DNA from: a virus
Taxonomy: Duplodnaviria > Caudoviricetes
DNA length: 29,416 nt
Virus record (IMG/VR): IMGVR_UViG_3300032259_000014
Span: 1 to 29,416 of that record
Direction: 5' to 3' (one strand)
The notes beneath the pieces were generated by a model, which worked only from the letters and a program-made list of their open reading frames with translations, was not told the DNA's origin and did not search any database. The translations under genes and the position numbers were made by a program. This document shows, in pieces, positions 24 to 25,568 of the stretch (the first letter of the stretch is position 1; each line of letters begins with the position of its first letter).

Positions 24-710
24 GCTCTCGATAGCTGGGTCGCACGGCTGCTTTGTGCCCGCGTGCCGTTTCGCGTGCCTGCGCTTCGCAGGTCCCATCT
101 GAGTGCGGGTCGCACCGCTTCGGTGCGGGGACCCGCCCAGATGGCACGTGAAATGGCGCGTGGAATAGTACAAAGCTAGCGAGTGCGGGGCCCCAGCTTG
201 CGCGAGCAGTCAAGGTGGAGATGTGAAGGACGAAGGACTGAGCATACTACCTTGACGGCTCGGTAGGATGCGCGGGACCAGAGAGAGAGATTGTCCGTAG
301 ACCGTAATACCGCACGTGGCGTGACGGGCGGTCCCGAGTCGGGTAGTACGCTGCTTCAGCGTACTGGGACCCGACATTCTCCGCTTCGGAGGATGGGGCC
401 GCACGTCGCGGTTACGAGGGTCCACTTTGTCAGCTGTAGGGCTCCAAGCCCTGCAGGTGGCAAGCGCCTTGCGGGTAGCACGTGCTTCACGTGCTGGGCC
501 CCGCTGGCGCATCGTGGACCGTTTCTTTCTAAGTACAGCTTTGCTGTACTGCGGACGCTGCGAGTAGCAGCGTACAGGATACAACACATAGATACTCTGT
601 CCACAGCTGATAGGCTGTGACCCACTGCTTAAGCTTAAACATAGTAGCAGCAGCGAAGGCAGCAGGCTGTTAGGAGCATGTAGCACTATGTAGGGAGAAC
701 AACAAGCAGT
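24..710 (+). ncRNA. Large, highly structured non-coding element (candidate ncRNA or folded ssDNA) of unknown family
   Basis: Nested helices read directly. Domain 1: 33-39/192-198, 41-45/183-187, 50-58/168-176, 59-77/145-163 (19 bp, 4 G.U), 78-92, 95-101/138-144, 105-136. Hairpin 204-261. Closing helices 275-283/595-602 and 293-300/549-556. Domain 3: 320-326/404-410, 328-335/395-402, 338-375, 377-393. Domain 4: 419-425/514-520, 427-463, 464-510. Later hairpins: 532-550, 555-573, 602-619, 624-630/704-710, 639-645/685-691. Non-Watson-Crick positions are G.U on the + strand. The ORFs here have no RBS and no protein-like composition. Confidence 0.7.
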
Positions 711-798
711 TGCGAAGACCCATGAAGGTAAGTCGGCGACGAGCGTAGCGAGGAGACATACGTACAGGAAATTCCCAGAAACCCCAAAATCCCAGCTA

Positions 799-927
799 AT
801 GATACATTTTCGGGTCCATATGTATCATCTAGACGGAAATACAGTAGGTAACCCCCTATATGGTAACTAGTTACCGGAAAGGAAAGGACCCCCTATATAT
901 AGGGGGGTCCTTTCCGGTTTCCTCCGG
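799..927. promoter_or_regulatory. Cluster of palindromes and inverted repeats; candidate replication origin or protein-binding region
   Basis: Inverted repeat ATGATACAT(799-807)/ATGTATCAT(820-828). Perfect palindrome GGTAACTAGTTACC (862-875). Near-perfect palindrome GGAAAGGACCCCC-TATATATA-GGGGGGTCCTTTCC (881-915). Direct repeat ACCCCCTATAT (851-861, 888-898). Locally AT-rich and upstream of the helicase operon. Confidence 0.45.
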
Positions 928-1019
928 CCGTTCTTTTCTTACCAGAAATCTTTTCCGGAAAGGGAATAAACCGCAGGTCAGGGGCGTTATACTAGTTGAA
1001 ATCTACTGGAGAGAGAGAT

Positions 1020-1169: not shown

Positions 1170-1327
1170 CTGATACACCAACCATCACCTACGAATGGAA
1201 ACCTTGGCGGTGGCGATGGCAAACCTTCGTGTCACCGTCGGGGCAGTTCATTATGAAATGGAGGGGGCCGTTCGTGTGGTCAGTGTGGACGGGTCGCAGC
1301 AAATACAAAGAGGTGACCGATGTCTGA
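1166..1327 (+). CDS. Small Trp-rich hypothetical protein, 53 aa (MTDTPTITYEWKPWRWRWQTFVSPSGQFIMKWRGPFVWSVWTGRSKYKEVTDV); not in the ORF track
   Basis: ATGA coupling with the upstream ORF and GAGGTGAC immediately upstream. Its N-terminus is nearly identical to that of the next gene, and its stop overlaps the next gene start. Confidence 0.55.
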   Translation: MTDTPTITYEWKPWRWRWQTFVSPSGQFIMKWRGPFVWSVWTGRSKYKEVTDV

Positions 1328-1727
1328 TACACCAACCCTCACCCTGTACGAGAAATGCAAACACGGGTTCTTGGTAGCACACAAGCTATGGGCACCAGAG
1401 GACGTTGAGGAATGGGAAGAGATGGGCATGTACGAAGTGAAGTGCGCCCGTCCAGATTGTGGGTTAGAGATTGTGCGTCCTGGCAAGACCCAATGTCACC
1501 TTGATCCCGACTGCTCCCTTGAACTCCGTACTCCAATTATTGATTGTCCTGGTGGGCGGGAACGCACCTTCCAACAAGGACACATCCAATGCCTGTCGTG
1601 TGGCGAGAAATGGTCTGCCTTGAAATACGGCAACGACTACGACCCAACAGGGCACCAATGCGCTCCTGGCGAGCAACCCGAGAATCGGTTCGAGCGTGTG
1701 TGGTTGGAGGTGACGCGTGCCTCTTAA
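1320..1727 (+). CDS. Cys-rich putative zinc-binding protein
   Basis: Strong RBS GAGGTGA at 1310. Contains CKH, CARPDC, CHLDPDC, CLSC and HQC motifs. Overlaps the helicase start. Confidence 0.7.
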   Translation: MSDTPTLTLYEKCKHGFLVAHKLWAPEDVEEWEEMGMYEVKCARPDCGLEIVRPGKTQCHLDPDCSLELRTPIIDCPGGRERTFQQGHIQCLSCGEKWSALKYGNDYDPTGHQCAPGEQPENRFERVWLEVTRAS

Positions 1728-2694
1728 CTGGCAGGCTGTATCGGAGCTACTACTTGAGCCCTACGTTGAGCCGCACTGGGCGATTGATGAGTGGCTGGTT
1801 GAGGGTGAGAGTGGACTGGTCATCGGTGAGCCGAAGACGTACAAGTCCACGCTGGCGCTGGACATGGCGGTGAGCTTGGCCACAGGTACGGACTTCATGG
1901 GCATTTATCCGGTAAGAACTGTGAGTCCGGTTCTCTTCATTCAGGAGGAGAACAATATGTCGATTCTCATGCCTCAGCTCTACCAGCTGATGGAGAGGGC
2001 CGGGCACGGGCACCAAGCTCTGCGGGCTGTGGACACGGGGTTCGAGAAAGTGTGGGTGCCGCTTGAGGACGCGCCGGAGCTGCCGCTCTATATGTCGGTG
2101 CGCGCGGGCTGGCAGGCCGACAAGGCCAGCATGGGTATGGTGGTCAACAAGGCCAACGAGATCGGGGCGGGGTACGTGTTCATCGATCCGCTCTACAAGA
2201 TCAACCCTTCCGGGTTCACACAGCCGGACGATGTGGCGCCTGTGCTCCACACGCTGAGTACGATTGAGAATGAGACAGATGCGAGCGTGGTGCTAGTGCA
2301 CCACGCTAACAAGGGTAACACTGCCGGGGGCAAACGAATTCTAGGGTCACAGCTGATCTGGGCCTGGGGCGCCAACAACATCTACATCGAGAAGAAGACA
2401 AAGACCAACGGGCAGAAGTACTTGTACGTACAGCGTGAGTTTCGTGGTAAGCCGGAGCCGGACGATATTCATGTTCGCTTTGAGGAAGACTTTCACTGGG
2501 ACGTCGAGGAAGCAGTTGTAGACGCTACGGGTAAGGCGGTCGGTGGTCGGGCGTCGACGGGGTTCGGGCTCTGGATGGACCTTATGCGTTCTGACGATGA
2601 TTTCCGTAACAGTTCGCAGACCGAGCAGGCAGCCCGTATCAACGTCACCCCAAAGACGATTTACAACTGGCGTCAGAAGTCGGGAATAAAATAA
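1717..2694 (+). CDS. AAA_25 / RSF1010 RepA-like SF4 helicase with C-terminal HTH
   Basis: Walker A GEPKTYKS, VLFIQEE, Walker B VFIDP and LVHHANK motif. C-terminal SQTEQAARINVTPKTIYNWRQK looks like an HTH. RBS GGAGGTGA precedes the GTG. Confidence 0.85.
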   Translation: MPLNWQAVSELLLEPYVEPHWAIDEWLVEGESGLVIGEPKTYKSTLALDMAVSLATGTDFMGIYPVRTVSPVLFIQEENNMSILMPQLYQLMERAGHGHQALRAVDTGFEKVWVPLEDAPELPLYMSVRAGWQADKASMGMVVNKANEIGAGYVFIDPLYKINPSGFTQPDDVAPVLHTLSTIENETDASVVLVHHANKGNTAGGKRILGSQLIWAWGANNIYIEKKTKTNGQKYLYVQREFRGKPEPDDIHVRFEEDFHWDVEEAVVDATGKAVGGRASTGFGLWMDLMRSDDDFRNSSQTEQAARINVTPKTIYNWRQKSGIK

Positions 2695-2891
2695 TGTCTA
2701 ACTATGTTATACTATGTATGAACGCCGTAGACAACCTCGAAAAGGTCCGCAGGTTAATAGGTGCTGTCCTCCTAGGATACCCATGTACTCTGACCGAAGC
2801 GGTGCGGCTGCAAGAGGCACTACTAAAAATTGAGCTAGCCCTGGAGAGTATCAGTGGTAAAAACAACAACGACAGGAAAGGTCCGGGCTAA
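2694..2891 (+). CDS. Small hypothetical protein (possibly a leaderless start at ATG 2718)
   Basis: Helical-looking ORF filling the gap between helicase and terminase. TGnTATACT at 2705-2713 lies just before ATG 2718. Confidence 0.4.
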   Translation: MSNYVILCMNAVDNLEKVRRLIGAVLLGYPCTLTEAVRLQEALLKIELALESISGKNNNDRKGPG

Positions 2892-4716
2892 ATCCTTCAA
2901 GGTTGTCCGTGACCTTCCTGACGTCTACCTCCCGCCGCCCAAAGGGAACAAGGGCACAGCCGCCTGGAAGGTGTGGGCGAAGGAGGCCTTCGTTGAGCTG
3001 CTGCGTAATGGGTACAACATCCAGGACGCGGTGGACTTCCTTGGTGTGTCGCGCGGCTGGTATGAGAAGAATGCTGAGCGGGACGAGGACTGGGGGGAGC
3101 TGACGCGGCAGGTCCGCAGCGGTGACGACCCCGACCGGGACGAGCAGGCCCGCGACTACCCGGACATCTCGTATATGTCGTACCGGGAGTTCGCGCTAGA
3201 CTACCTCGACCTGTCGGTCTACCCTCACCAGGAGCCCATCGTTGAGGCACTGGAAGATGGTAACATCAACAAGCTAATTGTTACGGGCTTCCCGGAGAGC
3301 GGGAAGTCAACGCACATCAGTCTGGGGTACATCCTGTATCGCATCTGCCTCAACCCTGACCTGCGTGTGGCCCTGGTTTCAAAGTCGCAGACCAAGGCTG
3401 AGGACCTCCTGCGACGCCTTAAGCGGTACATGACCGAGGAGCATTTATACGATGAGACTAAGCGCAACCTCATTCAAGACTTCAAGGGGTTTAGGCCGGG
3501 GTCTCACACTGCACACAGATGGGATCAAGAACAGATCACTATTCGTCAGCGTCGTTCCGGGGAAAGGGACCCAACCGTCCAGGCCCTGGGTGTTGGGGCG
3601 CAAATATATGGAGCCCGGATTGACCTTCTGGTTCTGGACGATGCGCTTACCTTGGAGAACCAGCTCACGCCTGAGCGTCGTTCTAAGATCGACTCATGGT
3701 TCCTCCAGGAAGCCTCCTCTCGCGCCCACAAGGGAGAGATAATCGTAGCAGGCACGCGAGTCCACCCGGAAGATAACTTCAAGTCGTGGACCAAGGCCTG
3801 GGAGGGTGACCCCCACACCTCCTTCGTCAAGATTCCCGCCATTCTCGGTGAGGAGTCCGGCGAGGAGACAAGTGTGTGGCCCGAGTACTGGCCGCTCGAC
3901 GGTGAGACGCTCTGGGACGAGTTCAACAAAATGGAGCGCTACCAGAAAGGTATGCGTGACATCCGCAAGGAGATGGAAGCATTAGGAGCATGGAGATGGC
4001 GCCTCGTTTATCAGCAGGAGGACGTCTCCCTAGACGCTTCCGTCTTTTCGCAAGAAGTTATAGATCGGGCCCTGGAGATGGGTGCGCACAGAAGTCTCGG
4101 TCAGGTATTCCCCCAAGAAATCTTGATCCTTGGTGTGGACCCTGCGACGACGGGCCGAGCTGCTGCCGTACTCATGGCCTACGACCCACGGTCCCGTGTT
4201 CGTACCGTCGTAGACCTGTGGGTAGGCGACCGGCTCGGCGCTCAGGGCGTCCGTGACAAGCTGCTCTATCACTTCTGGGAAAAATACAGGCCACAACGAA
4301 CATTAGTGGAGGTTAACTATGCTCCGACGCTCTTGGCTGACGAGGTTCTTCGAAGCCGTGCAGAGGCGGCTGGTACCATCCTTCTCGGACATACAACTAC
4401 CGGGCGAGGACACAAGCGTGGAAACATTAACGATGAAGAGTATGGAATTGGCGCTATGGCCCCACTGTTTGCTGGCGGACTATTCAGCCTTCCCTCCGCT
4501 ACGCCTGGAGACATCAATCGCCTGCAGCCGCTACTTGATGATCTTGCCGCTTTCCCCTATGGTGAGGCGAAAGACGCACTAGTTGGTTTGTGGGTGGCCG
4601 AGGGGGAGACGCGCCTGGTTGCAGCTGCTCAGCCAACCACAGAACAGATCGTGTCTGGTCGTAATTTACCACCCATCCTGGCGAGGCGACTACGGAACCG
4701 GCGTAGTTTATCTTGA
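2854..4716 (+). CDS. terL: Terminase large subunit with N-terminal HTH (small-subunit-like) extension
   Basis: Adenine-binding region YPHQ, Walker A GFPESGKST, Walker B LLVLDD, motif C GTR, RNase H-like LGVDPA and terminal KDALVGLW. Directly upstream of the portal. Confidence 0.92.
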   Translation: MVKTTTTGKVRAKSFKVVRDLPDVYLPPPKGNKGTAAWKVWAKEAFVELLRNGYNIQDAVDFLGVSRGWYEKNAERDEDWGELTRQVRSGDDPDRDEQARDYPDISYMSYREFALDYLDLSVYPHQEPIVEALEDGNINKLIVTGFPESGKSTHISLGYILYRICLNPDLRVALVSKSQTKAEDLLRRLKRYMTEEHLYDETKRNLIQDFKGFRPGSHTAHRWDQEQITIRQRRSGERDPTVQALGVGAQIYGARIDLLVLDDALTLENQLTPERRSKIDSWFLQEASSRAHKGEIIVAGTRVHPEDNFKSWTKAWEGDPHTSFVKIPAILGEESGEETSVWPEYWPLDGETLWDEFNKMERYQKGMRDIRKEMEALGAWRWRLVYQQEDVSLDASVFSQEVIDRALEMGAHRSLGQVFPQEILILGVDPATTGRAAAVLMAYDPRSRVRTVVDLWVGDRLGAQGVRDKLLYHFWEKYRPQRTLVEVNYAPTLLADEVLRSRAEAAGTILLGHTTTGRGHKRGNINDEEYGIGAMAPLFAGGLFSLPSATPGDINRLQPLLDDLAAFPYGEAKDALVGLWVAEGETRLVAAAQPTTEQIVSGRNLPPILARRLRNRRSLS

Positions 4717-6654: not shown

Positions 6655-7041
6655 ATGCCCAGCGCAAGTGATATCTCTAGCACAATCGAACCAGGAAGTT
6701 TGGAGTACGGCGACCGCCAGGTGGTGGCCAACCGACTTCAGCAAGCTATTCCATCTCTCCAGGGAGGGGCTACCCCGTCCGGCCCTGCCCCTGGAGCCCC
6801 GGCACCGGGAGCTCCGCAAGACCCCCTAGCTCGCCTTCTGGGGGGAGCCTACAGTTCCGACTTACCGCCAACTGATGGCCTCTCTGTGGGCCCCGGTGCC
6901 GGGCCACCTTCTACGGGGGCGGGGATTGCCTCCAGCCCGCTCATCGAAAAGCTGCGCCTCATCGCTACCGAGGCTAGCAGTCCCCTCCTCCGTACTTATG
7001 CCCGCGCGTCTCTGCGCCGTGAAATACTGAAGAGCGTGTAA
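6655..7041 (+). CDS. Pro/Gly-rich small protein, probable virion component
   Basis: Coupled to the portal stop and to the giant ORF start (TAATG). Contains the motif PPTDGLSVGPGAGP. Confidence 0.65.
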   Translation: MPSASDISSTIEPGSLEYGDRQVVANRLQQAIPSLQGGATPSGPAPGAPAPGAPQDPLARLLGGAYSSDLPPTDGLSVGPGAGPPSTGAGIASSPLIEKLRLIATEASSPLLRTYARASLRREILKSV

Positions 7042-10000
7042 TGGCAGTCACTATTGACGGCGCAGACGCACAGAAGACGGTAGATGATGCAAGGGTCCTT
7101 GAGGAACGCAAGCGGCGTGTAGTTAGACTCGATCCAAGGATCGGGCCCGAGGACGTGCTGTCGTATGACGAGGCGATGTCCCTCCATATCTGGAACCTCA
7201 CCACGGCACAGCCTCGGGACATCCCCCAGCAGCTCAACAACAAGTTCTCCCCCACCATCGAGTTTGATACAGCAGCGGAGATCGGCCAGGTGTTGGGAAC
7301 CAGCGTCGAGCAGTCCATTCGTGACGCCCGCGCTCGCGTCAACTTAGGCACCTACGAGGGACTCAAATCCCCCGCGCAGAAGAGGCACGAGGACGAGTTC
7401 CTCCTAGCATATGAGGCTGCTTGGCACAACACCCGTGGCCGTGTCGATCCGATGTTCTACATTATGAACTCAGAGGACCTCCACCTGCTTGGCTGGGATG
7501 CCGAGGCTACAACCCGTTTGGCCAGTACCGAGCGCCTTTGGATCGCCATAGACAAGGCTAAGGCTGCTCGTGACTTCGCCCAGTCGGCGCGGATCGATGT
7601 GGTCATGGCCAACTACAACGTGGGCCGGGAGAAGGCCGCGGAGCTGCTGGTCAAGTACGACGCTGCCCTGCAGCAAGGTGACCAGGCTGTGGCTGCCATG
7701 ACCGACGTAGAGATTCTCAAGTATGCGGGCTATAAGACAGCCTCCGAGATGGGTGTAGGGTTTGCTGCGGACGACGCTGCCGAGGAGGAGCGTCGGGCAC
7801 AGTACCTCGCCCGCGGTAAGGGCCAGATATGGAACGAGGCTGTGGCCACCTTCGCCAAGGACACCTTACCACAAGGATACCAAGGTCGCGACTTCCACAA
7901 CATTATGATGGGCAAGGACTACACCCCGGCGGGCCTCGCCAAGATGGGTGTCGAAAGCGCCTTCGGTGTTGTCGGAGCGGGCATCACCGGCATGGTTAAT
8001 GTGTCCGGCTGGCTGCTAGAGGCAGGCGGTGTGACACTGGATGGGGCCGCGTTTCAGCGGGGTTTTGAGATGCTATTTGGTGGCTCCGATACTGTAGAAG
8101 CCATGCGCGCCAGGGAAGACTGGCTGGTGGCTGAGTCCGGACGGGCGCACGAAGACATCGTGGCCCAGTTCGCCGCCGAGGGGTTGCTCAATGGGTGGGA
8201 GCTGATGAAGAAGGACGCCCCAGATGAGGCAGCTCTGTACATCAATATGGCTGGTGGGAAAGAGAACGTGGCGCGCGCTATGTGGTCTCAGGACGCCCAG
8301 TACTTTGGTATCACCATGGAGGATGGTAAAGAAACCAACATCCGAGAGATGGCAGAGGCCCAAGCCAAGATGTACGAGGATGAGACGCGCTACAACCTGG
8401 ACCAGCTAGAGGATGAGAACTTCGGCGTGTCCGATGCTCTTCTCAACCTCCTCGCCATCTGGGGGGAAGGCGTGGAGAACCTCGCTACCGTGGCCACCCT
8501 TGGCGCTAAGCAGCTGTGGGACGACGGCGCTGACCTTCTTTTCACCGGTAGCGTCAATCGCCCGAAGAATAGCTGGTCCCTCAAGCAGCTCTACAATGAT
8601 GTCCAGAAGGCGGATACGCCTGCTGGCGCTCTGGGTATCGAGGGGACCCTCACGGGGCTGGCCTTTAACCTAGGCAGCATGGCCCTGATGGACCCCATGA
8701 CGTGGATTTTCGGCCCCCGCCTGGCGAAGGCCGGGCGAGCCGGGGTCTTATCAGCTGAGCAGGCTGCTGCTGTCATCGAGTCACGGGTGCAGGATATCAG
8801 TCGCCAGCAGATGATCGATGTGGCCCGCAGCTCTACCCGTGGAGCGACGGCCTTCTCAACGCTGCTTCATACGTATGGCGAGACCGGCCTGGCCTCGCGG
8901 ATGATGGGTGCTATGCGCGGGTTCAAGAATCCCCTGACCACCTTCTGGAAGGGGATGGAGAAGTGGGGCAAGGCGGCAGATGATATTTATGTCCCCACCC
9001 TACGAGGCATGATGCCCAAGGGGGCCTCATACACCAATGATGTCCTAGAGGCAGCGTACAAGCGGATGCAGGCAGGCGAGCACGCCCCTGTGGTCGTTGA
9101 GTACAACCCCGCTACAGGGGCACGGCAGGTTGTGGAGGGCGGCGAGTATGTCGCTGCCGCTGAGAGGTATGGGGTCGACTCCCTCCAGACGACCATGCGG
9201 CGGAACGAAGCGTTCGGGACGTTCTACCCACCGGCAACCTTCAAGGAAATGCGGGATGCAGTCAAAGAGTACATAGGCATGACTCCCGAAGGGACCATGA
9301 CTCCCAACCAGCTGGCGGATTACTTGGAGCTTGATTACCGCTCGCCCAACGCCTCGGCCTCTCAGCGCACCAACCTAGACCGCATGAAGGACGCGATGGG
9401 GGATACACCGGAGTCGGCGCTCGAATTCCTCGATGAGGTTGAGTCGATTCCAATCGCTGGGGACGTGCTTTACGACAAGGTTGAACTCACCTTCTTCGGG
9501 CCCGAGCGTACCGTCATGGTTACAGATGGTAACACGCGTGTTGCGGCCATGATCGAGAAGGGGTTTGGTGACACCCCGATCAATGTTGACTTTGTGCCTT
9601 CTACCAGGGGTATGGATGGCCTGACCAAGCTTGTGGAAAAGCGTCCGGCTGCACCCCCGCGCCACGTGATCCCGGAGGAGATTGGTCGTTTGCCAGACCC
9701 CGACGTTGGAACTGGGGAATGGGTTAACAGGGCGGGGGATGGCCGGATCGTTACCATTGACGGCGTAGACTACGTGTCCCCTCGCAACATCATGCCTGAC
9801 GAGATTCGCTGGGGCGATACCATCGACATTGAAGCGATCAAGAAGATTGAGTTCGAGCACCTCATGCGCGGCGGCGATCCGATGAACGCCAATCGCACCG
9901 CCATGAGTGTGGCAATGGGTTGGGCTTTTAGGGACACCCTCGCCGCGTCCGGCGTTGGGAGGCGCCTTGAGTCGTTCTTCACCGCAGTTAACAACAACCT

Positions 10001-13000
10001 TCTCCTGTCCCACACCGGCCCGACCGGCATGTCGAACACTGCGAACGTGCTGTCGCGTATCTTTGGTTCTGTGGATGACATGGAGGGCTTGGAGCTGGCC
10101 AACCGCCGGATCATGAACTGGTGGAACGAGCACGGCCAGCTGACCCGGCAGTCCGATGAGCTGACGGCCCGGTTTGCTGCCATCCAGGCACAGATGGACG
10201 GAATAGAGCAGGCCATGGGAGGCAGCCGCTACGCATCCCAGATGGACCTCATGGACCCGACCACCCAGTACTACGAGCTGGCAAACCCCAACGAGGCACA
10301 GCTCAACCTCTTCCAGTCCATCGACCGCCTCAAGCCAGAGCAGGGCCCTGTGCCCCCCGGCACCGAGACGGTCAAGCAGGTGGGTAGGGAGGCTGACCCC
10401 TCCGTCACCAGTATGGAGCTGCAGAAACCGGCGAACTACGAGCCGGGAACGGAGCCGGTCCTCCCTCAGGAGAACCTGTTCCAGGCAGAGCAGCCAGTCC
10501 CCGGTAGTTCGCAGCATATAGATACTCCTTACCACAACCCAGAGGACGTCATTACTTCCCAGCTGGTGGATGACGGTTCGGGCACAGGCTACCAGAAGCG
10601 AATCGTGCTTGACAAGCCTGACCCAGCCACCTTTGGGAAGTCGGACTACAAGGCCGTGGACTACCCGGCTCTGCCCGACATTACCCGAGAGATCAATCAG
10701 TCACTCGCCTCAGCTGCTGAGCGCAACCGCCCCGTAGAGAGCGCCCTTCGCACTGAGATTCGTGCCCTGGATAAGCAGCGCACAGAGATTCGCCGCCAGC
10801 AGCAGGCTGTGGCCGCGGCCCTCAAGAACTTCGACGGCCTGAATGCAATCTTAGACGATGTCTTCGATGAGTTCATACAGAAGCACATTGCTAGCAACCC
10901 CGCCTTCAAGGAGCTTCTGGATGAGGAGGGACGGATCGATCCGGCCAAGGTGTCCACTCGCTCCAGCACCCCCCTGGGGATGGCTGAACGTTCTCTAACG
11001 AGAGCGCGCGCCGATGGCATCAGGCTCGGGCAGGCCACCATGAAGGAGCTGGGGTACATCCCAGAGTTCATGAAGTCCATCATTGACGTGGTGGATGAGG
11101 GGCAGTTCGACCTGCTGATGCAGTTCCTCGAAGAGGTCAACCACGGCGGCAAGAGTTCCGGCGGCTACGCCATGTCCATGTCCCCACTGGAGCTGATGGC
11201 TGCGGCCAACGGCACACCGCAGGTTATGAGACAGCTGGGTCGGGCCCAGATCAATACGCAGCTCAGGCAGTTCGCTCACCTCGCCCAGAACTACTGGATG
11301 ATTGACAAGGTGCTGACCCCGCGTACCGCGGTCGTTGTCACCCTTGATGAGCTGATGCGTGCGTGGCACACCGGCGGTATCTACAGCACGTTCCAGTACT
11401 TCGAAGACAAGATCATGAACGCTACCCGCCTGGTAAATCGCCAGATGCAGCTGCCCGGCTTTCAGAAGCTGGAGTTGCGCTGGCAGCAGCGTATCCAGGC
11501 GCTCCAAGAGTACCCAGATTTCTTCAAGCAGATGCAGGGTTCTATCTTGGATAACAAGGGGTACGGCTTCGATACCATCCCCTTCCGCAAGAACCACCCC
11601 AACTATGAGTACTACGCTGCTGCGCAGGAGACCGCTCAGCAGCGCATCTCTTCCCCCGGTTGGCAGAACTACTTCAAGGGCCGCGAGAGCTTCAGGGAGT
11701 GGTTTGAGACTTCGACCGAGGCTGAGCTGCTTCGCTCCAGCGACTACTGGGACGCCTCCTCCAACCTGAGGAAGGCGGGGCTCAAGTGGGAAGAGGTGTA
11801 CCAGGGCTACGAGACTCTCTACGAACTCTCCACTAAGAACATAAAGGCCGGGAAGGAGGGAGCTGCTAAAGAGGCGTGGGCCACAGCAGCTGAGAACGCC
11901 GCCACATCCGAGAAGGCTGTGACCCTCCCTAACTGGGTCCTTGAGGGCTTTGGGGAAGTGCATGGCGCTGCCAAGATTCCGAGCGCCACCATACCCCGAC
12001 CTGTGGAGTGGGTGTCCGATGCTCTCTTCCAGCGCCCCATGAACTACCGGCAGGGCTTCTTGGCCGAGCTGGTTCGCAAGTCTGAGATGGCTCGCCTGGA
12101 GACACTCTTCAGCTCGCAGGGTGCCAAGATCGTCACTGATGAGGAGATTCTCTCCCTGCTCCGCAACAAGTATCCGGGGCTGCATGAGCGCTTCCTTCGG
12201 GAGGGCATTGATGGCATTGCCATGGAGCTTATGGACACCGAGCATATCATCTCCCAGCGTGCTGTGCGCCGGATGGTGGAGTCGAAGGTTGTGGCAGAGA
12301 TGGAGAACCAGCTCTATGGCTTCCACATGCAGAGCGCCGCTGGCCGCAAGGCCCGTGCCGTCGTGCCGTTCGGCAAGCCGTGGGCTGATATGTGGGGCTT
12401 CTGGGGCCGAGAAATGCTGGGACGCCCCCAGCTCCGTGGTCTGCTCAACAGTGAGAACTATGGGAAGCTGTCTCAAATCGCAAATGCGGCAGTAGACACG
12501 TCACCTGTCAACCCGAAGACAGCTGCCTTTATGAGCCGCCTCGCTGCGACTGACTTCACCATGGACAACATCGGTGACGACCCCCTCTTTGGGGGTGCGG
12601 CCCGATCCTTAGGTATTGACCGGATGGATGTGGGCAACGCCCTCTTCCTCCCGACTGGTGGCGAGTCTCCGTGGCTCGTACTCCTGCCGGGGCTCGGGGC
12701 TATCCCTGGAGCCCTGGTCGAATCTGCTCTGTTGAAGATTGCGCCGGACCCCCTTGAGGACCCCACAGGCTACCAGATGTTCACCGACCAGTGGAGTAAG
12801 GTCTTCCCCGGCATCGGCTACAATCGTCAGACGAGCCTCACCGGTCTGGCCAAGGAGGCTACCATCGGTGGCGGTGTGATCGGTCGTGGCCTTGCTATGA
12901 TGGACAACCTTGGAATGATTACCGGCTCCGACGTCAACCTCAGCGCCAATAGCATCACCGCTGACTGGAAGATGGGCATGGCCTACGACCGTGAGGTCAA

Positions 13001-14795
13001 GCTGGCATTCACCGACTCCCAAATCTGGGCCGAGCTGGCAGGCCTACCTCCCGACCAGGCAACGATTGCGCTAGAGGCTTACATCAACGACGTACTCCGG
13101 GGTGTTCAAAAGGACGCCGCTAGGTCTGTCGGCTGGGACCTGGCCAAGGAAGGCATGATGGAGCTGATGGCTCCTGCCCGCATCAACACCCTCACCCAAC
13201 GGGATGACCTGCGGGATGTGTGGCTCGATGGGCTGAATTTCTTTGATGTCACCCCCGAGTTCAAGAACCGTCTCAACCTCGATACTGAGAAGGGCCGGGA
13301 CGAAGCTGCTGATGCCATCAGTTCTTGGTTCTTCAGTCTCTCTCCTGACGAGAAGGACAATTATATCGCTGCTCACCCCGAGCTGGCGGTCAACACCATC
13401 AGCATGTGGACGTGGTCAGACCACGCTATCTCCAACCAGATTCAGGGTTCCGGAATCCCCTACCGCTCTGGTGGGTCTACGGAGGAACGAAACCGTCACG
13501 AGACTCTGATCGAGGAGGGCTACCTGCGGGTGCTAACTCCACGAGAATTAGCAGTTAGGATCATTGGCACGGTCTACACTGCCAAGTCGGGTACCGCCCG
13601 CAGGGTGTATGAGCACGCGGCCAAGGCCGTCAACGATCAGCGCTGGGCCGAGCTACCGCCGGACTACCTCACTTGGTTTGAGAGCCTCCGCTCCCAGCTC
13701 AAGGACGTGGCTGAGGTTCCGTGGGACGACCCCCGCACGCTCTGGGAAAATTTCGACAAGGTACGGGACATCGTCTGGGAAGTCAACGGTCGGCCCATGA
13801 AAGACGTCAAGAAGGATGGCAAGGTAGTTGGTGAAGAACCCGACAAGATCAGCCTGCCGCAGAAGAGGGCTCCGTGGGGCGAGACGCTGCCTAGCGATTT
13901 CTCAAGCCTACGAGACGACTACGAGAACGGCTACCCTGTCCCCACGGTAACACCAGAGCTGGCCAAAGCTGCTGCCGCAGCGGGGATTGATGTCACGGCT
14001 GGGATGGAGATGTCCGGCATCTACCAGGCTGTGGCCAATGTGCGGTCGGCGCTCCTGACCGACAACCCCGTCTTCAGCATCGTTGGTCCCGAGTACTTAG
14101 CGTACCTGTCCCCGCGCTCCGCTGGACACGAGGATGTGATTGCCAAGCTCAACACAGCGCTCGACGCTGAGGGTGTGGATGAGGATACCCGGCATGAATA
14201 CCGCAAAATCTTCATCTATTTGGAGGATGCCATCGAGCGCCGCCACGCAGGTGACCAGAGTTGGCTGCAGGTACGTGATCAGGCGGCAACGCTCTACAAG
14301 GGACTCAAGTACGACGACATTATGGGCAAGTTACCACTGGACTTCTATTGGAACCAGGCTTACGGCAGCCAGCTCGGCTCCCTCGACTGGACCCCAGACG
14401 AGCCCGCGCCCCTGTTCCGTGACGATGGTACTTTCAACCCCGAGGCTCAGCGCATTCTGGTGCGGAAGGTCTATGATGGTGACACCATCCAGTTCTCAAC
14501 CGGCCCGAACGATCGCCTCTTCGGAGAACTCGGCGGTCCAAAGATTCCGCCGAAAGTCTACTCCGTCCGTATGCTTGGCGTCAATGCCAGGGAGATGGGT
14601 CAGGAGGGAGGCGATGAGGACCGGCTTCGTCTGTCTGACAAGATTGAGGAAGCCATCGACAATGGTGTGCCGATCTACCTCGTCAAGGACCCGAAGCGGT
14701 ATGGCTACACGGACTTCTATGGCCGGTTGTTCGGATGGGTGTACATTGGAGATGAGGCCTTCTCCTTCCCTGAGACTCAATACCCGACGAGGTAA
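7041..14795 (+). CDS. Giant (2584 aa) polyvalent / internal-virion ejection-type protein with two ParB-like motifs and a C-terminal SNase-like nuclease domain
   Basis: One continuous ORF with phage-like codon usage. ParB/Srx-like segments are PVVV...VVEGGEYVAAAERYG (about 9081-9190) and VMVTDGNTRVAAMIEKG (DGNTR at 9525-9539). Thermonuclease motifs VRKVYDGDT, VRMLGVNARE and DFYGRLFGWVY lie at about 14460-14760. Confidence 0.75.
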   Translation: MAVTIDGADAQKTVDDARVLEERKRRVVRLDPRIGPEDVLSYDEAMSLHIWNLTTAQPRDIPQQLNNKFSPTIEFDTAAEIGQVLGTSVEQSIRDARARVNLGTYEGLKSPAQKRHEDEFLLAYEAAWHNTRGRVDPMFYIMNSEDLHLLGWDAEATTRLASTERLWIAIDKAKAARDFAQSARIDVVMANYNVGREKAAELLVKYDAALQQGDQAVAAMTDVEILKYAGYKTASEMGVGFAADDAAEEERRAQYLARGKGQIWNEAVATFAKDTLPQGYQGRDFHNIMMGKDYTPAGLAKMGVESAFGVVGAGITGMVNVSGWLLEAGGVTLDGAAFQRGFEMLFGGSDTVEAMRAREDWLVAESGRAHEDIVAQFAAEGLLNGWELMKKDAPDEAALYINMAGGKENVARAMWSQDAQYFGITMEDGKETNIREMAEAQAKMYEDETRYNLDQLEDENFGVSDALLNLLAIWGEGVENLATVATLGAKQLWDDGADLLFTGSVNRPKNSWSLKQLYNDVQKADTPAGALGIEGTLTGLAFNLGSMALMDPMTWIFGPRLAKAGRAGVLSAEQAAAVIESRVQDISRQQMIDVARSSTRGATAFSTLLHTYGETGLASRMMGAMRGFKNPLTTFWKGMEKWGKAADDIYVPTLRGMMPKGASYTNDVLEAAYKRMQAGEHAPVVVEYNPATGARQVVEGGEYVAAAERYGVDSLQTTMRRNEAFGTFYPPATFKEMRDAVKEYIGMTPEGTMTPNQLADYLELDYRSPNASASQRTNLDRMKDAMGDTPESALEFLDEVESIPIAGDVLYDKVELTFFGPERTVMVTDGNTRVAAMIEKGFGDTPINVDFVPSTRGMDGLTKLVEKRPAAPPRHVIPEEIGRLPDPDVGTGEWVNRAGDGRIVTIDGVDYVSPRNIMPDEIRWGDTIDIEAIKKIEFEHLMRGGDPMNANRTAMSVAMGWAFRDTLAASGVGRRLESFFTAVNNNLLLSHTGPTGMSNTANVLSRIFGSVDDMEGLELANRRIMNWWNEHGQLTRQSDELTARFAAIQAQMDGIEQAMGGSRYASQMDLMDPTTQYYELANPNEAQLNLFQSIDRLKPEQGPVPPGTETVKQVGREADPSVTSMELQKPANYEPGTEPVLPQENLFQAEQPVPGSSQHIDTPYHNPEDVITSQLVDDGSGTGYQKRIVLDKPDPATFGKSDYKAVDYPALPDITREINQSLASAAERNRPVESALRTEIRALDKQRTEIRRQQQAVAAALKNFDGLNAILDDVFDEFIQKHIASNPAFKELLDEEGRIDPAKVSTRSSTPLGMAERSLTRARADGIRLGQATMKELGYIPEFMKSIIDVVDEGQFDLLMQFLEEVNHGGKSSGGYAMSMSPLELMAAANGTPQVMRQLGRAQINTQLRQFAHLAQNYWMIDKVLTPRTAVVVTLDELMRAWHTGGIYSTFQYFEDKIMNATRLVNRQMQLPGFQKLELRWQQRIQALQEYPDFFKQMQGSILDNKGYGFDTIPFRKNHPNYEYYAAAQETAQQRISSPGWQNYFKGRESFREWFETSTEAELLRSSDYWDASSNLRKAGLKWEEVYQGYETLYELSTKNIKAGKEGAAKEAWATAAENAATSEKAVTLPNWVLEGFGEVHGAAKIPSATIPRPVEWVSDALFQRPMNYRQGFLAELVRKSEMARLETLFSSQGAKIVTDEEILSLLRNKYPGLHERFLREGIDGIAMELMDTEHIISQRAVRRMVESKVVAEMENQLYGFHMQSAAGRKARAVVPFGKPWADMWGFWGREMLGRPQLRGLLNSENYGKLSQIANAAVDTSPVNPKTAAFMSRLAATDFTMDNIGDDPLFGGAARSLGIDRMDVGNALFLPTGGESPWLVLLPGLGAIPGALVESALLKIAPDPLEDPTGYQMFTDQWSKVFPGIGYNRQTSLTGLAKEATIGGGVIGRGLAMMDNLGMITGSDVNLSANSITADWKMGMAYDREVKLAFTDSQIWAELAGLPPDQATIALEAYINDVLRGVQKDAARSVGWDLAKEGMMELMAPARINTLTQRDDLRDVWLDGLNFFDVTPEFKNRLNLDTEKGRDEAADAISSWFFSLSPDEKDNYIAAHPELAVNTISMWTWSDHAISNQIQGSGIPYRSGGSTEERNRHETLIEEGYLRVLTPRELAVRIIGTVYTAKSGTARRVYEHAAKAVNDQRWAELPPDYLTWFESLRSQLKDVAEVPWDDPRTLWENFDKVRDIVWEVNGRPMKDVKKDGKVVGEEPDKISLPQKRAPWGETLPSDFSSLRDDYENGYPVPTVTPELAKAAAAAGIDVTAGMEMSGIYQAVANVRSALLTDNPVFSIVGPEYLAYLSPRSAGHEDVIAKLNTALDAEGVDEDTRHEYRKIFIYLEDAIERRHAGDQSWLQVRDQAATLYKGLKYDDIMGKLPLDFYWNQAYGSQLGSLDWTPDEPAPLFRDDGTFNPEAQRILVRKVYDGDTIQFSTGPNDRLFGELGGPKIPPKVYSVRMLGVNAREMGQEGGDEDRLRLSDKIEEAIDNGVPIYLVKDPKRYGYTDFYGRLFGWVYIGDEAFSFPETQYPTR

Positions 14796-17542: not shown

Positions 17543-17571
17543 TTGACAATCGTTAACCAATATGGTATAAT
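17543..17571 (+). promoter_or_regulatory. Consensus sigma70/SigA promoter for the scaffold-capsid operon
   Basis: TTGACA (17543-17548), 17 nt, TG-extended TATAAT (17566-17571), in an intergenic gap. Confidence 0.88.
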
Positions 17572-23994: not shown

Positions 23995-25568
23995 TGGGCT
24001 TCCAGCCATATGGTTCCTTCGTTGGTGCTGATGTCCCCGCTAATAGGTACAAGGACCTCTATGCAGATACTTTCTACCTGAGCCGTGAGATGCTTCTCAT
24101 GGATCAGGCTGTCATCAGGTCACATAACTACTCGCCAGGCACAGCGGGGTTCATCCTTCGGCAGGATGGCACTGTCGAGATCAACGGTCTGACGGTAGCC
24201 GAGGACATTCAGTCCAGCAACTTCGTGACTGGTGAGTCCGGGTACTTCCTGGACTACAGTACAGGAGACGCTGAGTTCAACTCAACGCTGGCACGCGGAA
24301 CCTTTGCGACTGGTGCAGCCACCGGTACTCGCGACCCATACATCGTGATTGGTGAGTCTGGCGCATCACAGTATATGAAGTTCTACAGCGATGAGCCAGG
24401 CGAGAACTATCCTGGCGCTGTCTACCACGCCTACTTTGATGGGTCTGGCGGTGGCTTTCCAGACTATCTTGTGATGTCTTTGGTCAGTGGATCAATCAAC
24501 GCGACCTACCCAGACATGGCGACCATTGCACTTGGCTCGCAGAACGATGATGGCACCCTGCCGACTATCCAGCCATATGTCTATCTCCAAGCGGCTGGCG
24601 CGAACTCAAGTTTCACTGGCGGCGCTGGTGCCACCTCACTTGATCTGCGAGTCTCAAAGTGGACGCTGAGTGCGGAAACAACCTCAAATGGTTTCGTTGT
24701 GATGGCGGCTGACGCTGGCGCGAATCAGCACATTCTTTGGACAACTGCGTCTACTGACCGCTGGTATTTTCCAAGCGGCCAAGGGCACATCGTGGCGGTA
24801 GGTGACTACCACGTTCAGGCTGGTGGCGGGAGCGCAACCGCACCGAGCTTCTCTTTCTACAACGACACCGACACGGGGATGTTCCGCCTTGGTTCTGACG
24901 TACTCGGTTGGTCTGCTGGTGGAACCGAGCGGTTCCGTATGTCAACGGCTGGCTTCTACCACAACACATCAGGTGGGCCGTACCTAAAGGCTGGGGCCAG
25001 CGCTGTGGGCTCTGTTGCCTATGCTTTCACCGGCGACGGGAATACCGGGATGCACTGGGAGGGTGCCGACGATGGACGGCTTGTGGCAGGCGGAAGCTCC
25101 ATCGCCCAGTTCACCACTGGACACTTTGGCCCCGGTGCCGACGATGCCCGGACGCTGGGCAACTCATCGTTTCGGTGGTCCCAGATGCACGCTGTCCTCA
25201 TCTACAGCACAGGGTCGTATTCCAACACTACCGCCAACGCTGCCAACGTCTACATCAACTCCCTTGGTCGGCTGTATCGTTCCACCTCTGGTAGCAAATA
25301 CAAGAGGAACATCAAGCCTGTGGACTTGGCCGACATCGTCTTGCGTCCGGTACGCTATCAGCACACGGGGGACCGCAGGGTCCACTATGGGTTCGTAGCT
25401 GAGGATTTGGCAGAGCAAGATAAGCGGCTCGCCGTCATCGAGGATGGTGAGGTCGAGAGCTACGACGACCGTGCCCTCGCTGCGGTACTGGCCGCTAAGA
25501 TTAACCGCCTCGAAGAGCGCTTGACAGCGCTAGAACAACGTGGTATACTAGAGACCCCGGAGGTCTAA
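23994..25568 (+). CDS. Tail fibre / receptor-binding protein with C-terminal peptidase S74 intramolecular chaperone
   Basis: Two IxSxNY/FxxGxxG(F/Y)xLxxxG repeats at the N-terminus and GSATAPSFSFYNDTDTGMFR-type repeats. C-terminal STSGSKYKRNIKP...LRPVRY...GFVAEDL followed by a coiled coil. Confidence 0.8.
   Translation: MGFQPYGSFVGADVPANRYKDLYADTFYLSREMLLMDQAVIRSHNYSPGTAGFILRQDGTVEINGLTVAEDIQSSNFVTGESGYFLDYSTGDAEFNSTLARGTFATGAATGTRDPYIVIGESGASQYMKFYSDEPGENYPGAVYHAYFDGSGGGFPDYLVMSLVSGSINATYPDMATIALGSQNDDGTLPTIQPYVYLQAAGANSSFTGGAGATSLDLRVSKWTLSAETTSNGFVVMAADAGANQHILWTTASTDRWYFPSGQGHIVAVGDYHVQAGGGSATAPSFSFYNDTDTGMFRLGSDVLGWSAGGTERFRMSTAGFYHNTSGGPYLKAGASAVGSVAYAFTGDGNTGMHWEGADDGRLVAGGSSIAQFTTGHFGPGADDARTLGNSSFRWSQMHAVLIYSTGSYSNTTANAANVYINSLGRLYRSTSGSKYKRNIKPVDLADIVLRPVRYQHTGDRRVHYGFVAEDLAEQDKRLAVIEDGEVESYDDRALAAVLAAKINRLEERLTALEQRGILETPEV
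25521..25549 (+). promoter_or_regulatory. sigma70/SigA promoter for the lysis cassette, embedded in the 3' end of the tail fibre gene
   Basis: TTGACA (25521-25526), 17 nt, TG-extended TATACT (25544-25549). RBS GGAGGT precedes the holin ATG. Confidence 0.72.

What the first reader, a model, noticed from the sequence alone, without database searches (positions are those of the whole stretch)
24..710. About 700-nt multi-domain folded element beside the phage replication module: candidate new large ncRNA or structured ssDNA
Seen in sequence: nearly all of 24-710 pairs in nested helices. It contains three three-way-junction domains (33-198, 303-416, 419-520). Long-range helices 293-300/549-556 and 275-283/595-602 enclose the last two. 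The non-Watson-Crick pairs inside helices are G.U on the + strand; the 19-bp helix 59-77/145-163 has four. On the - strand these would be A.C mismatches, which points to selection for single-stranded folding of the + strand rather than for dsDNA palindromes. There is no credible ORF. Established: phages carry large structured RNAs (GOLLD, ROOL, phi29 pRNA), but I do not recognise this as any of them. Inference: it could be a new large phage ncRNA (scaffold, protein decoy/anti-defence, or packaging RNA) or a folded single-strand origin. It may continue beyond the left window edge.
Basis: partly seen in the sequence, partly recalled or inferred. Interest (0 to 1): 0.85.

Follow-up and report, generated by a model that had tools for sequence, protein, structure and literature searches.

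The report
Folded single-stranded DNA at phage end
A non-coding stretch near the likely end of an uncultured phage's chromosome is predicted to fold into a large branched structure on one strand, and its hairpin loops suggest it likely works as single-stranded DNA that would prime copying of the second strand, rather than as an RNA.

Summary
The fold is real at 24-620 on the + strand (24-530: z -12.4, against -6.2 for the other strand; 21 G·T pairs against 2). Strain variants include a compensatory pair change and a shortened helix re-capped with the same G[CTT]C loop. There is no Rfam match.

Related phages (terminase 45-84% identical) carry a folded, sequence-variable stretch in the same slot, beside a genome end marked by 9 of 64 contigs starting at the same homologous base (±1), inferred here at about 734. 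Across 17 slots the + strand has 15 C[GNA]G triloop hairpins (other strand 0, shuffles 4.1), one GNRA loop and no C(UUCG)G loop. These are DNA-type caps, and one sits inside this element (227-239). Relatives encode a RepB'-type primase and a RepA-type helicase.

Best reading: a strand-specific single-stranded DNA priming signal, like plasmid sso/ssi elements, in a tailed phage (0.45). Folded DNA in any role is about 0.7. An abundant end-of-genome RNA like that of mycobacteriophage L5 is about 0.25. No RNA or ssDNA data were available.

The parts
24..207 (+). Domain 1: long stem with a three-way junction, two G[CTT]C-capped arms, a 19-bp helix with 4 G·T, and module copies 1 and 2
   Evidence: z -9.4. 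In run X1 a variant replaces the 40 nt between 99 and 140 by 7 letters, which rebuilds a shorter stem with the same G[CTT]C loop
209..256 (+). Hairpin 2, capped at 227-239 by two tandem G·A mismatches and a C[GAA]G triloop (a DNA-type minihairpin)
   Evidence: Stem p 0.98-1.0. 16 of 17 nt identical on the same strand in the slot of L118. Variant T224C turns G·T into G-C
315..416 (+). Domain 2: three-way junction with two G[CTT]C hairpins and module copy 3
   Evidence: z -6.1 for 303-416. Compensatory T347C plus A363G on one contig of X1: -2.0 kcal/mol together, +4.7 for T347C alone
419..520 (+). Domain 3: three-way junction with T[CCA]A and G[CTT]C hairpins and module copy 4, followed by a pyrimidine tract at 521-530
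   Evidence: z -8.2 for 417-523; base helix p 0.77. An X1 variant diverges after 527
37..502 (+). Four-copy module GGGT-MGYAC / GTRCK-GGG-MCCC (37-45/183-194, 107-115/123-134, 341-349/361-372, 473-481/491-502): a helix with a GGG bulge whose stem letters covary between copies; candidate repeated protein-binding site (inferred)
   Evidence: 4 copies of each half; 0 in the rest of the window; at most 1 in 5000 shuffles (pattern defined after seeing the copies)
532..619 (+). Three short hairpins with C[TTT]G, C[GAGTA]G and T[GATA]G loops
   Evidence: p 0.98-0.99; z -3.6 on + and -3.7 on -, so no strand bias
718..799 (+). Family-conserved terminus motif; inferred physical left end of the genome at about 734-735, just after a conserved TAAG
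   Evidence: 88% identical to L096 over 82 nt. 9 of 64 related loci begin 43-44 nt before the homologous anchor and 3 more begin 40 nt before it
799..965 (.). Nested palindromes (e.g. 881-893/903-915), origin-like region (inferred); in the low-GC clade the same place holds repeated GGACTAA words
1717..2694 (+). AAA_25 ATPase (RSF1010 RepA family)
   Evidence: PF13481 E 9e-23; the only PDB match of the family profile is RepA 1g8y, weak, E 0.004
2854..4716 (+). Terminase large subunit, used to collect relatives
   Evidence: phrog_38 E 5e-57

Best explanation
The 24-620 stretch folds strongly on the + strand and likely acts as single-stranded DNA: a strand-specific priming signal (sso/ssi-like) that would let the phage's primase start the second strand. 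Shown: the fold, its strand bias, structure-keeping variants, the same folded slot in relatives, and DNA-type loop caps on the + strand. Inferred: the genome's left end is at about 734, so the element is the last ~0.7 kb of unique sequence of the right arm, on the strand whose 3' end lies there. Inferred: a fork starting at the palindromes at 800-965, driven by the RepA-type helicase and phage polymerase A, displaces or lags on the + strand. That strand folds; the repeated GGG-bulge helices and CTT or GNA caps bind the RepB'-type primase or a partner; and a primer laid here is extended leftwards along the genome. The arrangement would parallel sso-before-dso in rolling-circle plasmids and ssi-beside-iterons in RSF1010 (both recalled).
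For: Loop census over 17 slots, 13,763 nt, + against - strand: C[GNA]G 15 vs 0 (shuffle mean 4.1, max 10 of 200); tandem-GA modules 47 vs 9 (mean 7.2, max 17); G[CTTG]C 10 vs 0; G[CTT]C 6 vs 0; C[GNRA]G 1 vs 1 (mean 2.2); C[UUCG]G 0 vs 0. The full module GA-stem-C[GNA]G-stem-GA occurs 8 times on + and 0 on - in 18 slots (shuffle mean 0.12, max 2 of 300); one copy is inside this element at 227-239. d(GNA) triloops closed by C:G are exceptionally stable in DNA (PMC3201870, passages) and cap the folded 3' overhangs of Streptomyces telomeres (PMC5449611, passages). In L013 against L014/L124, 34 of 226 predicted pairs change on both sides; 4 of 6 pairs of one C[GAA]G hairpin covary around a fixed loop; orthologous caps swap between C[GTA]G, C[TT]G and C[GCA]G. 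Fixed contig starts. RepB_primase above the curated cut-off in 3 low-GC relatives, polymerase A in G001, AAA_25 in every clade tested.
Against: No experiment shows ssDNA or priming. This element's own main caps are G[CTT]C, which is not a DNA-specific loop, and it has no C[GNA]G hairpin under the stricter definition; 8 of 17 slots have none. Patterns were chosen after viewing the sequences, and slots are not independent (L013/L014, L020/L141). Tandem GA pairs and G(CUUG)C loops are also RNA motifs (recalled). Strand bias is uneven in relatives: RNA z favours + in 4 of 12 low-GC slots and DNA z in 8 of 12 (6 shuffles only); L089 has more G·T on -. No primase gene is in the window itself, and the G001 candidate had no Pfam hit. 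The origin and the fork direction are inferred. No sequence similarity to a known sso was found.
Confidence: 0.45

Rival explanations
1. It is a ~500-nt non-coding RNA transcribed rightwards from a promoter left of the contig edge, ending at the U-rich tract at 521-530 and acting as a multi-site protein decoy or scaffold through four GGG-bulge modules.
For: G·U makes up 12% of confident pairs. A U-tract follows the last domain, and an X1 variant diverges after 527. L5, D29 and StarStuff make a very abundant, sequence-divergent ~500-nt RNA at the right end, part of which could not be deleted (PMC5712189, passages and section 11). In L5 the better-folding strand is the transcribed one (z -4.0 against -1.3). 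L089 has a 10/12 promoter match pointing into its slot.
Against: One C[GNRA]G and no C[UUCG]G hairpin on + in 13,763 nt of slots, against 15 C[GNA]G. L5's RNA runs toward the early genes, which here would be the - strand, the weaker fold. L5's transcribed strand shows no such cap bias. No sigma-70-like promoter was found in L003, L096 or L001, but the same scans also miss their early promoters, so this is weak.
Confidence: 0.25
2. It is folded + strand DNA with a non-priming role at the genome end: it shields or limits the exposed 3' end during exonuclease and Sak4-type annealing, or marks the junction for terminal-repeat duplication and packaging, or decoys host ssDNA sensors.
For: Same loop census and end position. 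The window encodes a Sak4-like annealing protein and a Holliday-junction-resolvase-like nuclease. GNA loops are proposed to resist single-strand nucleases in Streptomyces telomeres (PMC5449611). One L003 hairpin matches the 3'-end strand of a linear Streptomyces plasmid record (35 nt, 91%, E 0.8, not significant). Rapid sequence turnover of the slot suits a decoy.
Against: No Tap, Tpg or other terminal-protein family was hit among the proteins scanned, and the phage has a terminase. The end type was not resolved. A RepB'-type primase, which needs a structured ssDNA site (recalled), offers a more direct partner.
Confidence: 0.22
3. The palindromes act in double-stranded DNA (operators, cruciforms, single-strand-type promoters) or are by-products of repeat expansion near the end.
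For: The - strand also folds (z -6.2). L089's first hairpin holds two convergent promoter-like sites. Conserved letters inside stems could be protein sites in duplex DNA.
Against: 21 against 2 G·T pairs; a compensatory pair change and a re-capped helix in variants; three-way junctions; loop motifs confined to one strand.
Confidence: 0.08

Closest known systems
Single-strand origins and initiation signals: rolling-circle plasmid sso, RSF1010 ssiA/ssiB with RepA helicase and RepB' primase, phiX174 and ColE1 primosome assembly sites
   Same: Strand-specific fold beside an origin-like region. The same helicase and primase families occur in relatives. The phiX174 F-G gap has two CGAAG loops, and ColE1 position 1332 has the 12-mer GAGCGTAGCGAG found at window 741-752 (that these places are assembly sites is recalled).
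   Different: It lies in a tailed dsDNA phage; it is 0.5-1 kb and branched, against tens to ~300 nt (recalled); it turns over between close relatives; it has no sequence similarity to plasmid records. The window's 12-mer lies just right of the inferred end, outside the element.
Pleft non-coding RNA of cluster A mycobacteriophages (L5, D29, StarStuff; PMC5712189) and the end ncRNAs of Rhodococcus phage WC1 (PMC10986025, passages)
   Same: Non-coding ~500 nt at the right end between divergent arms of an actinobacterial phage; divergent in sequence.
   Different: L5 folds at z -4.0 on the early-gene strand. This element folds at z -12.4 on the opposite strand, with triloop caps. No sequence match in the phage collection.
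Streptomyces telomere 3' overhangs (PMC5449611)
   Same: Branched ssDNA on the strand with the 3' end, GNA caps, conserved palindromes as protein sites; the partner there, Tap, is a primase.
   Different: The phage packages with a terminase; no terminal-protein family was hit; the element stops about 110 nt short of the inferred junction.
GOLLD, ROOL, raiA, OLE, and plasmid motifs GEBRO, ARRPOF and PAGEV (PMC5737381, passages)
   Same: Large folded intergenic elements. GEBRO lies between single- and double-strand origins and was suggested to act as ssDNA; the authors note that RNA and ssDNA motifs are hard to tell apart.
   Different: No Rfam hit at E up to 1 over the element or in 8 relatives' loci. 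No conserved ornate tertiary core; no tRNA family was hit in the window.

Membership tests
sso/ssi single-strand initiation signal | Non-coding, strand-specific extensive secondary structure | tested here: met
sso/ssi single-strand initiation signal | Lies beside the replication origin on the strand that becomes single-stranded | tested here: inconclusive
   Palindromes at 799-965 and AAA_25 are adjacent; the origin and fork direction are inferred, not mapped
sso/ssi single-strand initiation signal | Cognate priming enzyme available | tested here: inconclusive
   PF16793 above cut-off in 3 of 3 low-GC candidates; no hit for the partial G001 candidate; the gene is outside this contig
sso/ssi single-strand initiation signal | Sequence similarity to a described sso/ssi | tested here: not met
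   Only short chance-level plasmid hits
sso/ssi single-strand initiation signal | Orientation-dependent priming of ssDNA | not testable with these tools
   needs a priming or ssDNA-conversion assay
Rfam large ncRNAs (GOLLD, ROOL, OLE, raiA, GEBRO, ARRPOF, PAGEV, pRNA) | Covariance-model match | tested here: not met
   Only hit in the window is P10 at 5838, E 0.32; two miRNA-family chance hits in relatives; none
Cluster A Pleft ncRNA | Right-end non-coding position | tested here: met
   inferred end at about 734
Cluster A Pleft ncRNA | Folds best on the early-gene strand | tested here: not met
   L5 does; this element folds best on the opposite strand
Cluster A Pleft ncRNA | Abundant transcript | not testable with these tools
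   no RNA run could be laid on the element
Streptomyces-type telomere | Terminal protein genes and terminal palindrome I | tested here: not met
   No such family among 31 window proteins; terminase present; the left arm is missing from the contig
N4-type hairpin promoter | Virion RNA polymerase and short C[GNA]G template hairpins | tested here: inconclusive
   The 2584-aa protein has no Pfam or PDB sequence hit and I saw no polymerase motif in its translation; its structure was not predicted
Retron or DRT non-coding RNA | Adjacent reverse transcriptase | tested here: not met
   None among window proteins or the flanking genes of relatives that were scanned

The most novel reading that the evidence does not exclude
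A family of tailed actinobacterial phages carries at its genome end a swappable, 0.5-1 kb branched ssDNA device built from repeated protein-binding modules (GGG-bulge helices, tandem-GA GNA or TT minihairpins). It is a natural multi-domain DNA structure that recruits a RepB'-type primase and whose sequence is replaced wholesale between close relatives while its fold and strand are kept.
Probability: 0.3. Interest if true: 0.82.

Novelty: new variant of a known kind. Interest (0 to 1): 0.63.

Why it matters
Natural folded ssDNA elements of this size are few, and those I know come from plasmids, ssDNA phages and Streptomyces telomeres (recalled). One in tailed dsDNA phages would imply a long-lived single-stranded replication intermediate and show how a plasmid-type RepA/RepB' system copies a linear phage genome. 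The loop census is also a usable test for telling ssDNA from RNA among predicted 'structured RNAs' in viral genomes, a problem noted in PMC5737381. If it is an RNA instead, it is an unusually stable, modular counterpart of the still unexplained L5 end RNA. My searches listed no paper on such an element in this phage group; they cover open-access text only.

Tried and rejected
No sequence homolog of the element body was found. blastn of phages gave none and of plasmids only chance hits. The four-copy module pattern gave 0 hits in viral contigs; the element matched none of the fetched loci except the window's own record L095, apart from the 17-nt cap shared with L118. Searching with the window's AAA_25 gave no close locus; its 8 close protein relatives have no DNA context available. 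Covariation of the element itself therefore rests on the variants of one run.

No RNA holder was listed for the stretch; this is no evidence either way. A finer view of X1 variants over the element was not obtained, so the partner of G436A (position 454) is unknown.

The end type (cohesive, short repeat or pac) stayed unresolved: one contig ends 28 nt past the junction. FlowerPower, a distant relative with terminal repeats, folds better on the - strand, so it does not share the pattern.

Motif look-up in paper text gave no paper on the motif in the 30 listed of 45. Five motifs were absent from the 6 searched supplements of PMC10690425; 3 files, including two very large ones that may hold its RNA lists, were not searched. 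Supplements of PMC5737381 were not read. The RepB' structure paper was not held, so RepB'-ssi recognition is recalled. Earlier scan notes had nothing on this genome.

Full report
Setting. The window is a whole 29,416-nt viral contig. From 1320 to 27987 it runs rightwards through an AAA_25 ATPase, terminase, a 2584-aa protein, capsid, tail, holin and amidase genes. Leftward Hjc-like, polymerase-like and Sak4-like genes follow. The closest cultured terminases are those of Streptomyces phages such as FlowerPower at 28%, and relative L096 encodes a WhiB protein, so the host is probably actinobacterial (inference).

Observation. The + strand of 1-760 folds at -385 kcal/mol (z -9.96) and the - strand at -326 (z -6.38). 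For 24-530 the figures are z -12.4 and -6.2, with 21 G·T of 178 confident pairs against 2 of 153. The three junction domains and the 19-bp helix with four G·T are as described. The two long-range helices have probabilities of 0.003 or less, and 600-720 is at z -1.2. The overlapping ORFs show no codon-position GC pattern. Rfam has no match.

Seven of the nine short-loop hairpins found in 24-720 by a simple stem scan are long-stemmed triloops: G[CTT]C five times, C[TTT]G and T[CCA]A. A helix with a GGG bulge recurs four times, its stem letters covarying between copies (pattern defined afterwards). Hairpin 209-256 ends in AG-GA-C[GAA]G-GA-CT, and 16 of 17 of these letters recur on the same strand in the slot of L118, whose terminase is only 45% identical.

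Variation within the population. One DNA run, X1, holds 86% of the stretch's words and may be the source sample. One search lists six substitutions in the element; 80 rows for the 6-kb stretch were hidden. T347C with A363G is compensatory. T224C and T437C turn G·T into G-C. G411T is neutral. G436A costs 6.5 kcal/mol unless its partner at 454, too near the piece end to be listed, also changed. For comparison, 29% of 150 random substitutions were neutral or better. One contig replaces the 40 nt between 99 and 140 by seven letters that rebuild a shorter stem with the same G[CTT]C loop.

The family. Terminase searches gave 169 loci. No locus other than the window's own record matches the element body. 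All four close relatives with the region in view (70-84% terminase identity) have a non-coding folded slot in the same place, between the first leftward gene and a conserved ~80-nt motif. On + the slots fold at z -7.7 (L003), -4.8 (L096), -3.5 (L001), and -6.8 and -4.5 (two halves of L089). G·T excess is on + in three of them and on - in L089. A low-GC clade (51-53% identity) has the same slot. All 12 tested fold better than shuffles and have more G·T on +, although z favours + in only 4 of 12 with RNA and 8 of 12 with DNA parameters (6 shuffles, noisy). In L013 against L014/L124, 34 of 226 predicted pairs change on both sides (in effect two lineages).

Where the genome ends. Of 64 family loci examined, 18 have the conserved anchor within their first 140 nt. 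Nine begin 43-44 nt before it and three begin 40 nt before it, across both GC clades, just after a conserved TAAG or TAA. This points to a fixed physical left end, at window position 734-735. The element is then the end of the right arm, read through the junction, and the + strand is the strand with its 3' end there. Whether the end is cohesive, a short repeat or a pac cut was not resolved. FlowerPower's record begins with a stretch that recurs at its right end and has the same arm layout. Palindromes at 799-965 and the AAA_25 gene follow the end; I infer an origin there.

RNA or DNA. G·T bias does not decide this, as PMC5737381 notes (passages). Loop caps are more telling. Over 17 slots the + strand has 15 C[GNA]G hairpins and the - strand none (shuffle mean 4.1, max 10). 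It has 47 tandem-GA modules against 9 (mean 7.2), 10 G[CTTG]C against 0, one C[GNRA]G and no C[UUCG]G. A 49,862-nt coding control showed no such bias, with C[GNA]G 7 against 13. The complete GA-stem-C[GNA]G-stem-GA module occurs 8 times on + and never on - in 18 slots (shuffle mean 0.12). It occurs in 6 slots, one copy lying just right of the inferred end. At orthologous positions the caps swap among C[GTA]G, C[TT]G and C[GCA]G, and a GC-TT-GC tip becomes GT-TT-AC. d(C-GNA-G) loops are known as unusually stable in DNA (PMC3201870, passages). cGNNAg, cCNNGg and gCNNGc are stable DNA tetraloops (title seen in the reference list of PMC10085684). GNA loops cap Streptomyces telomere overhangs (PMC5449611). 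That GNRA and UUCG dominate structured RNAs is recalled. Against this: the patterns were picked after inspection; slots are related; 8 of 17 lack C[GNA]G; and this element's main cap, G[CTT]C, is not diagnostic.

Mechanism. The helicase family is that of RSF1010 RepA (PF13481; weak PDB match to 1g8y). Three low-GC relatives encode a RepB_primase above the Pfam cut-off, and G001 encodes polymerase A. RSF1010 replicates by strand displacement, with RepB' priming at folded ssi sites, and rolling-circle plasmids place a folded sso just upstream of the origin on the displaced strand (both recalled). A rightward fork from the left-end palindromes would expose the + strand, and its 3'-most unique segment, this element, is where second-strand synthesis must begin. 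I give this 0.45, and another ssDNA role at the end (protection, annealing, repeat duplication, decoy) 0.22.

The RNA rival (0.25) has a real precedent. L5-like phages make a very abundant, divergent ~500-nt RNA at the right end (PMC5712189, passages and section 11; bioRxiv 10.1101/2025.11.21.689395, passages; WC1, PMC10986025, passages). In L5 the better-folding strand is the transcribed one. Here that rule would give a rightward RNA, opposite to L5's, ending near the U-tract at 521-530. Its promoter would lie off the contig.

Verdict. A real, selected, strand-specific fold belonging to a family-wide, sequence-variable slot at a phage genome end. It works most like an sso/ssi but is not a member of any described family by sequence, and the defining priming activity is untested. 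It is best rated a new variant of a known kind, interest 0.63. Papers PMC10690425 (abstract, outline, 6 supplements searched), PMC4129139 and bioRxiv 10.1101/2025.10.14.682034 (passages) were also consulted and changed nothing.

Noticed in passing
window 7041-14795: The 2584-aa probable virion protein has no Pfam or PDB sequence hit. Its last ~80 residues match phrog_452 (endonuclease) and look like a staphylococcal-nuclease fold (motif recalled); possibly an injected nuclease.
   Followed up: partly
window 1717-2694: The AAA_25 protein is only 19-26% identical to that of relatives whose terminase is 70-76% identical, so the replication gene is swapped between close phages, as is the folded slot.
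   Followed up: partly
window 17543-17571 and 25521-25549: Near-perfect sigma-70-type promoters (12/12 and 11/12, both with extended -10) before the head genes and the holin.
   Followed up: no
window 720-733; L118, L003, L014 junctions: The 10-12 nt just left of the inferred end are conserved and end in TAA or TAAG, resembling actinophage 3' cohesive overhangs (recalled); L096 has an HNH gene before terL.
   Followed up: partly
L001:2944-3910; L006:2297-2740; L003:7158-7604: Relatives carry DUF4406, dATP/dGTP diphosphohydrolase or DUF1599 genes between helicase and terminase, hinting at modified DNA bases; the window has no such hit.
   Followed up: no
L089:770-922: A 150-nt hairpin whose two arms each hold a promoter-like -35/-10 pair, facing each other.
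   Followed up: partly
L168 and L169: Two low-GC members of this phage family sit in genome bins labelled Gammaproteobacteria and Pelagibacter; probably mis-binned phage contigs.
   Followed up: no
window 1189-1545: Run X1 shows several different joints skipping 150-360 nt here, so the small genes before AAA_25 vary between strains.
   Followed up: no
L020:3319-5705 (- strand): Early-arm genes that look like a class II glutamine amidotransferase and an amidoligase (by eye, not scanned).
   Followed up: no
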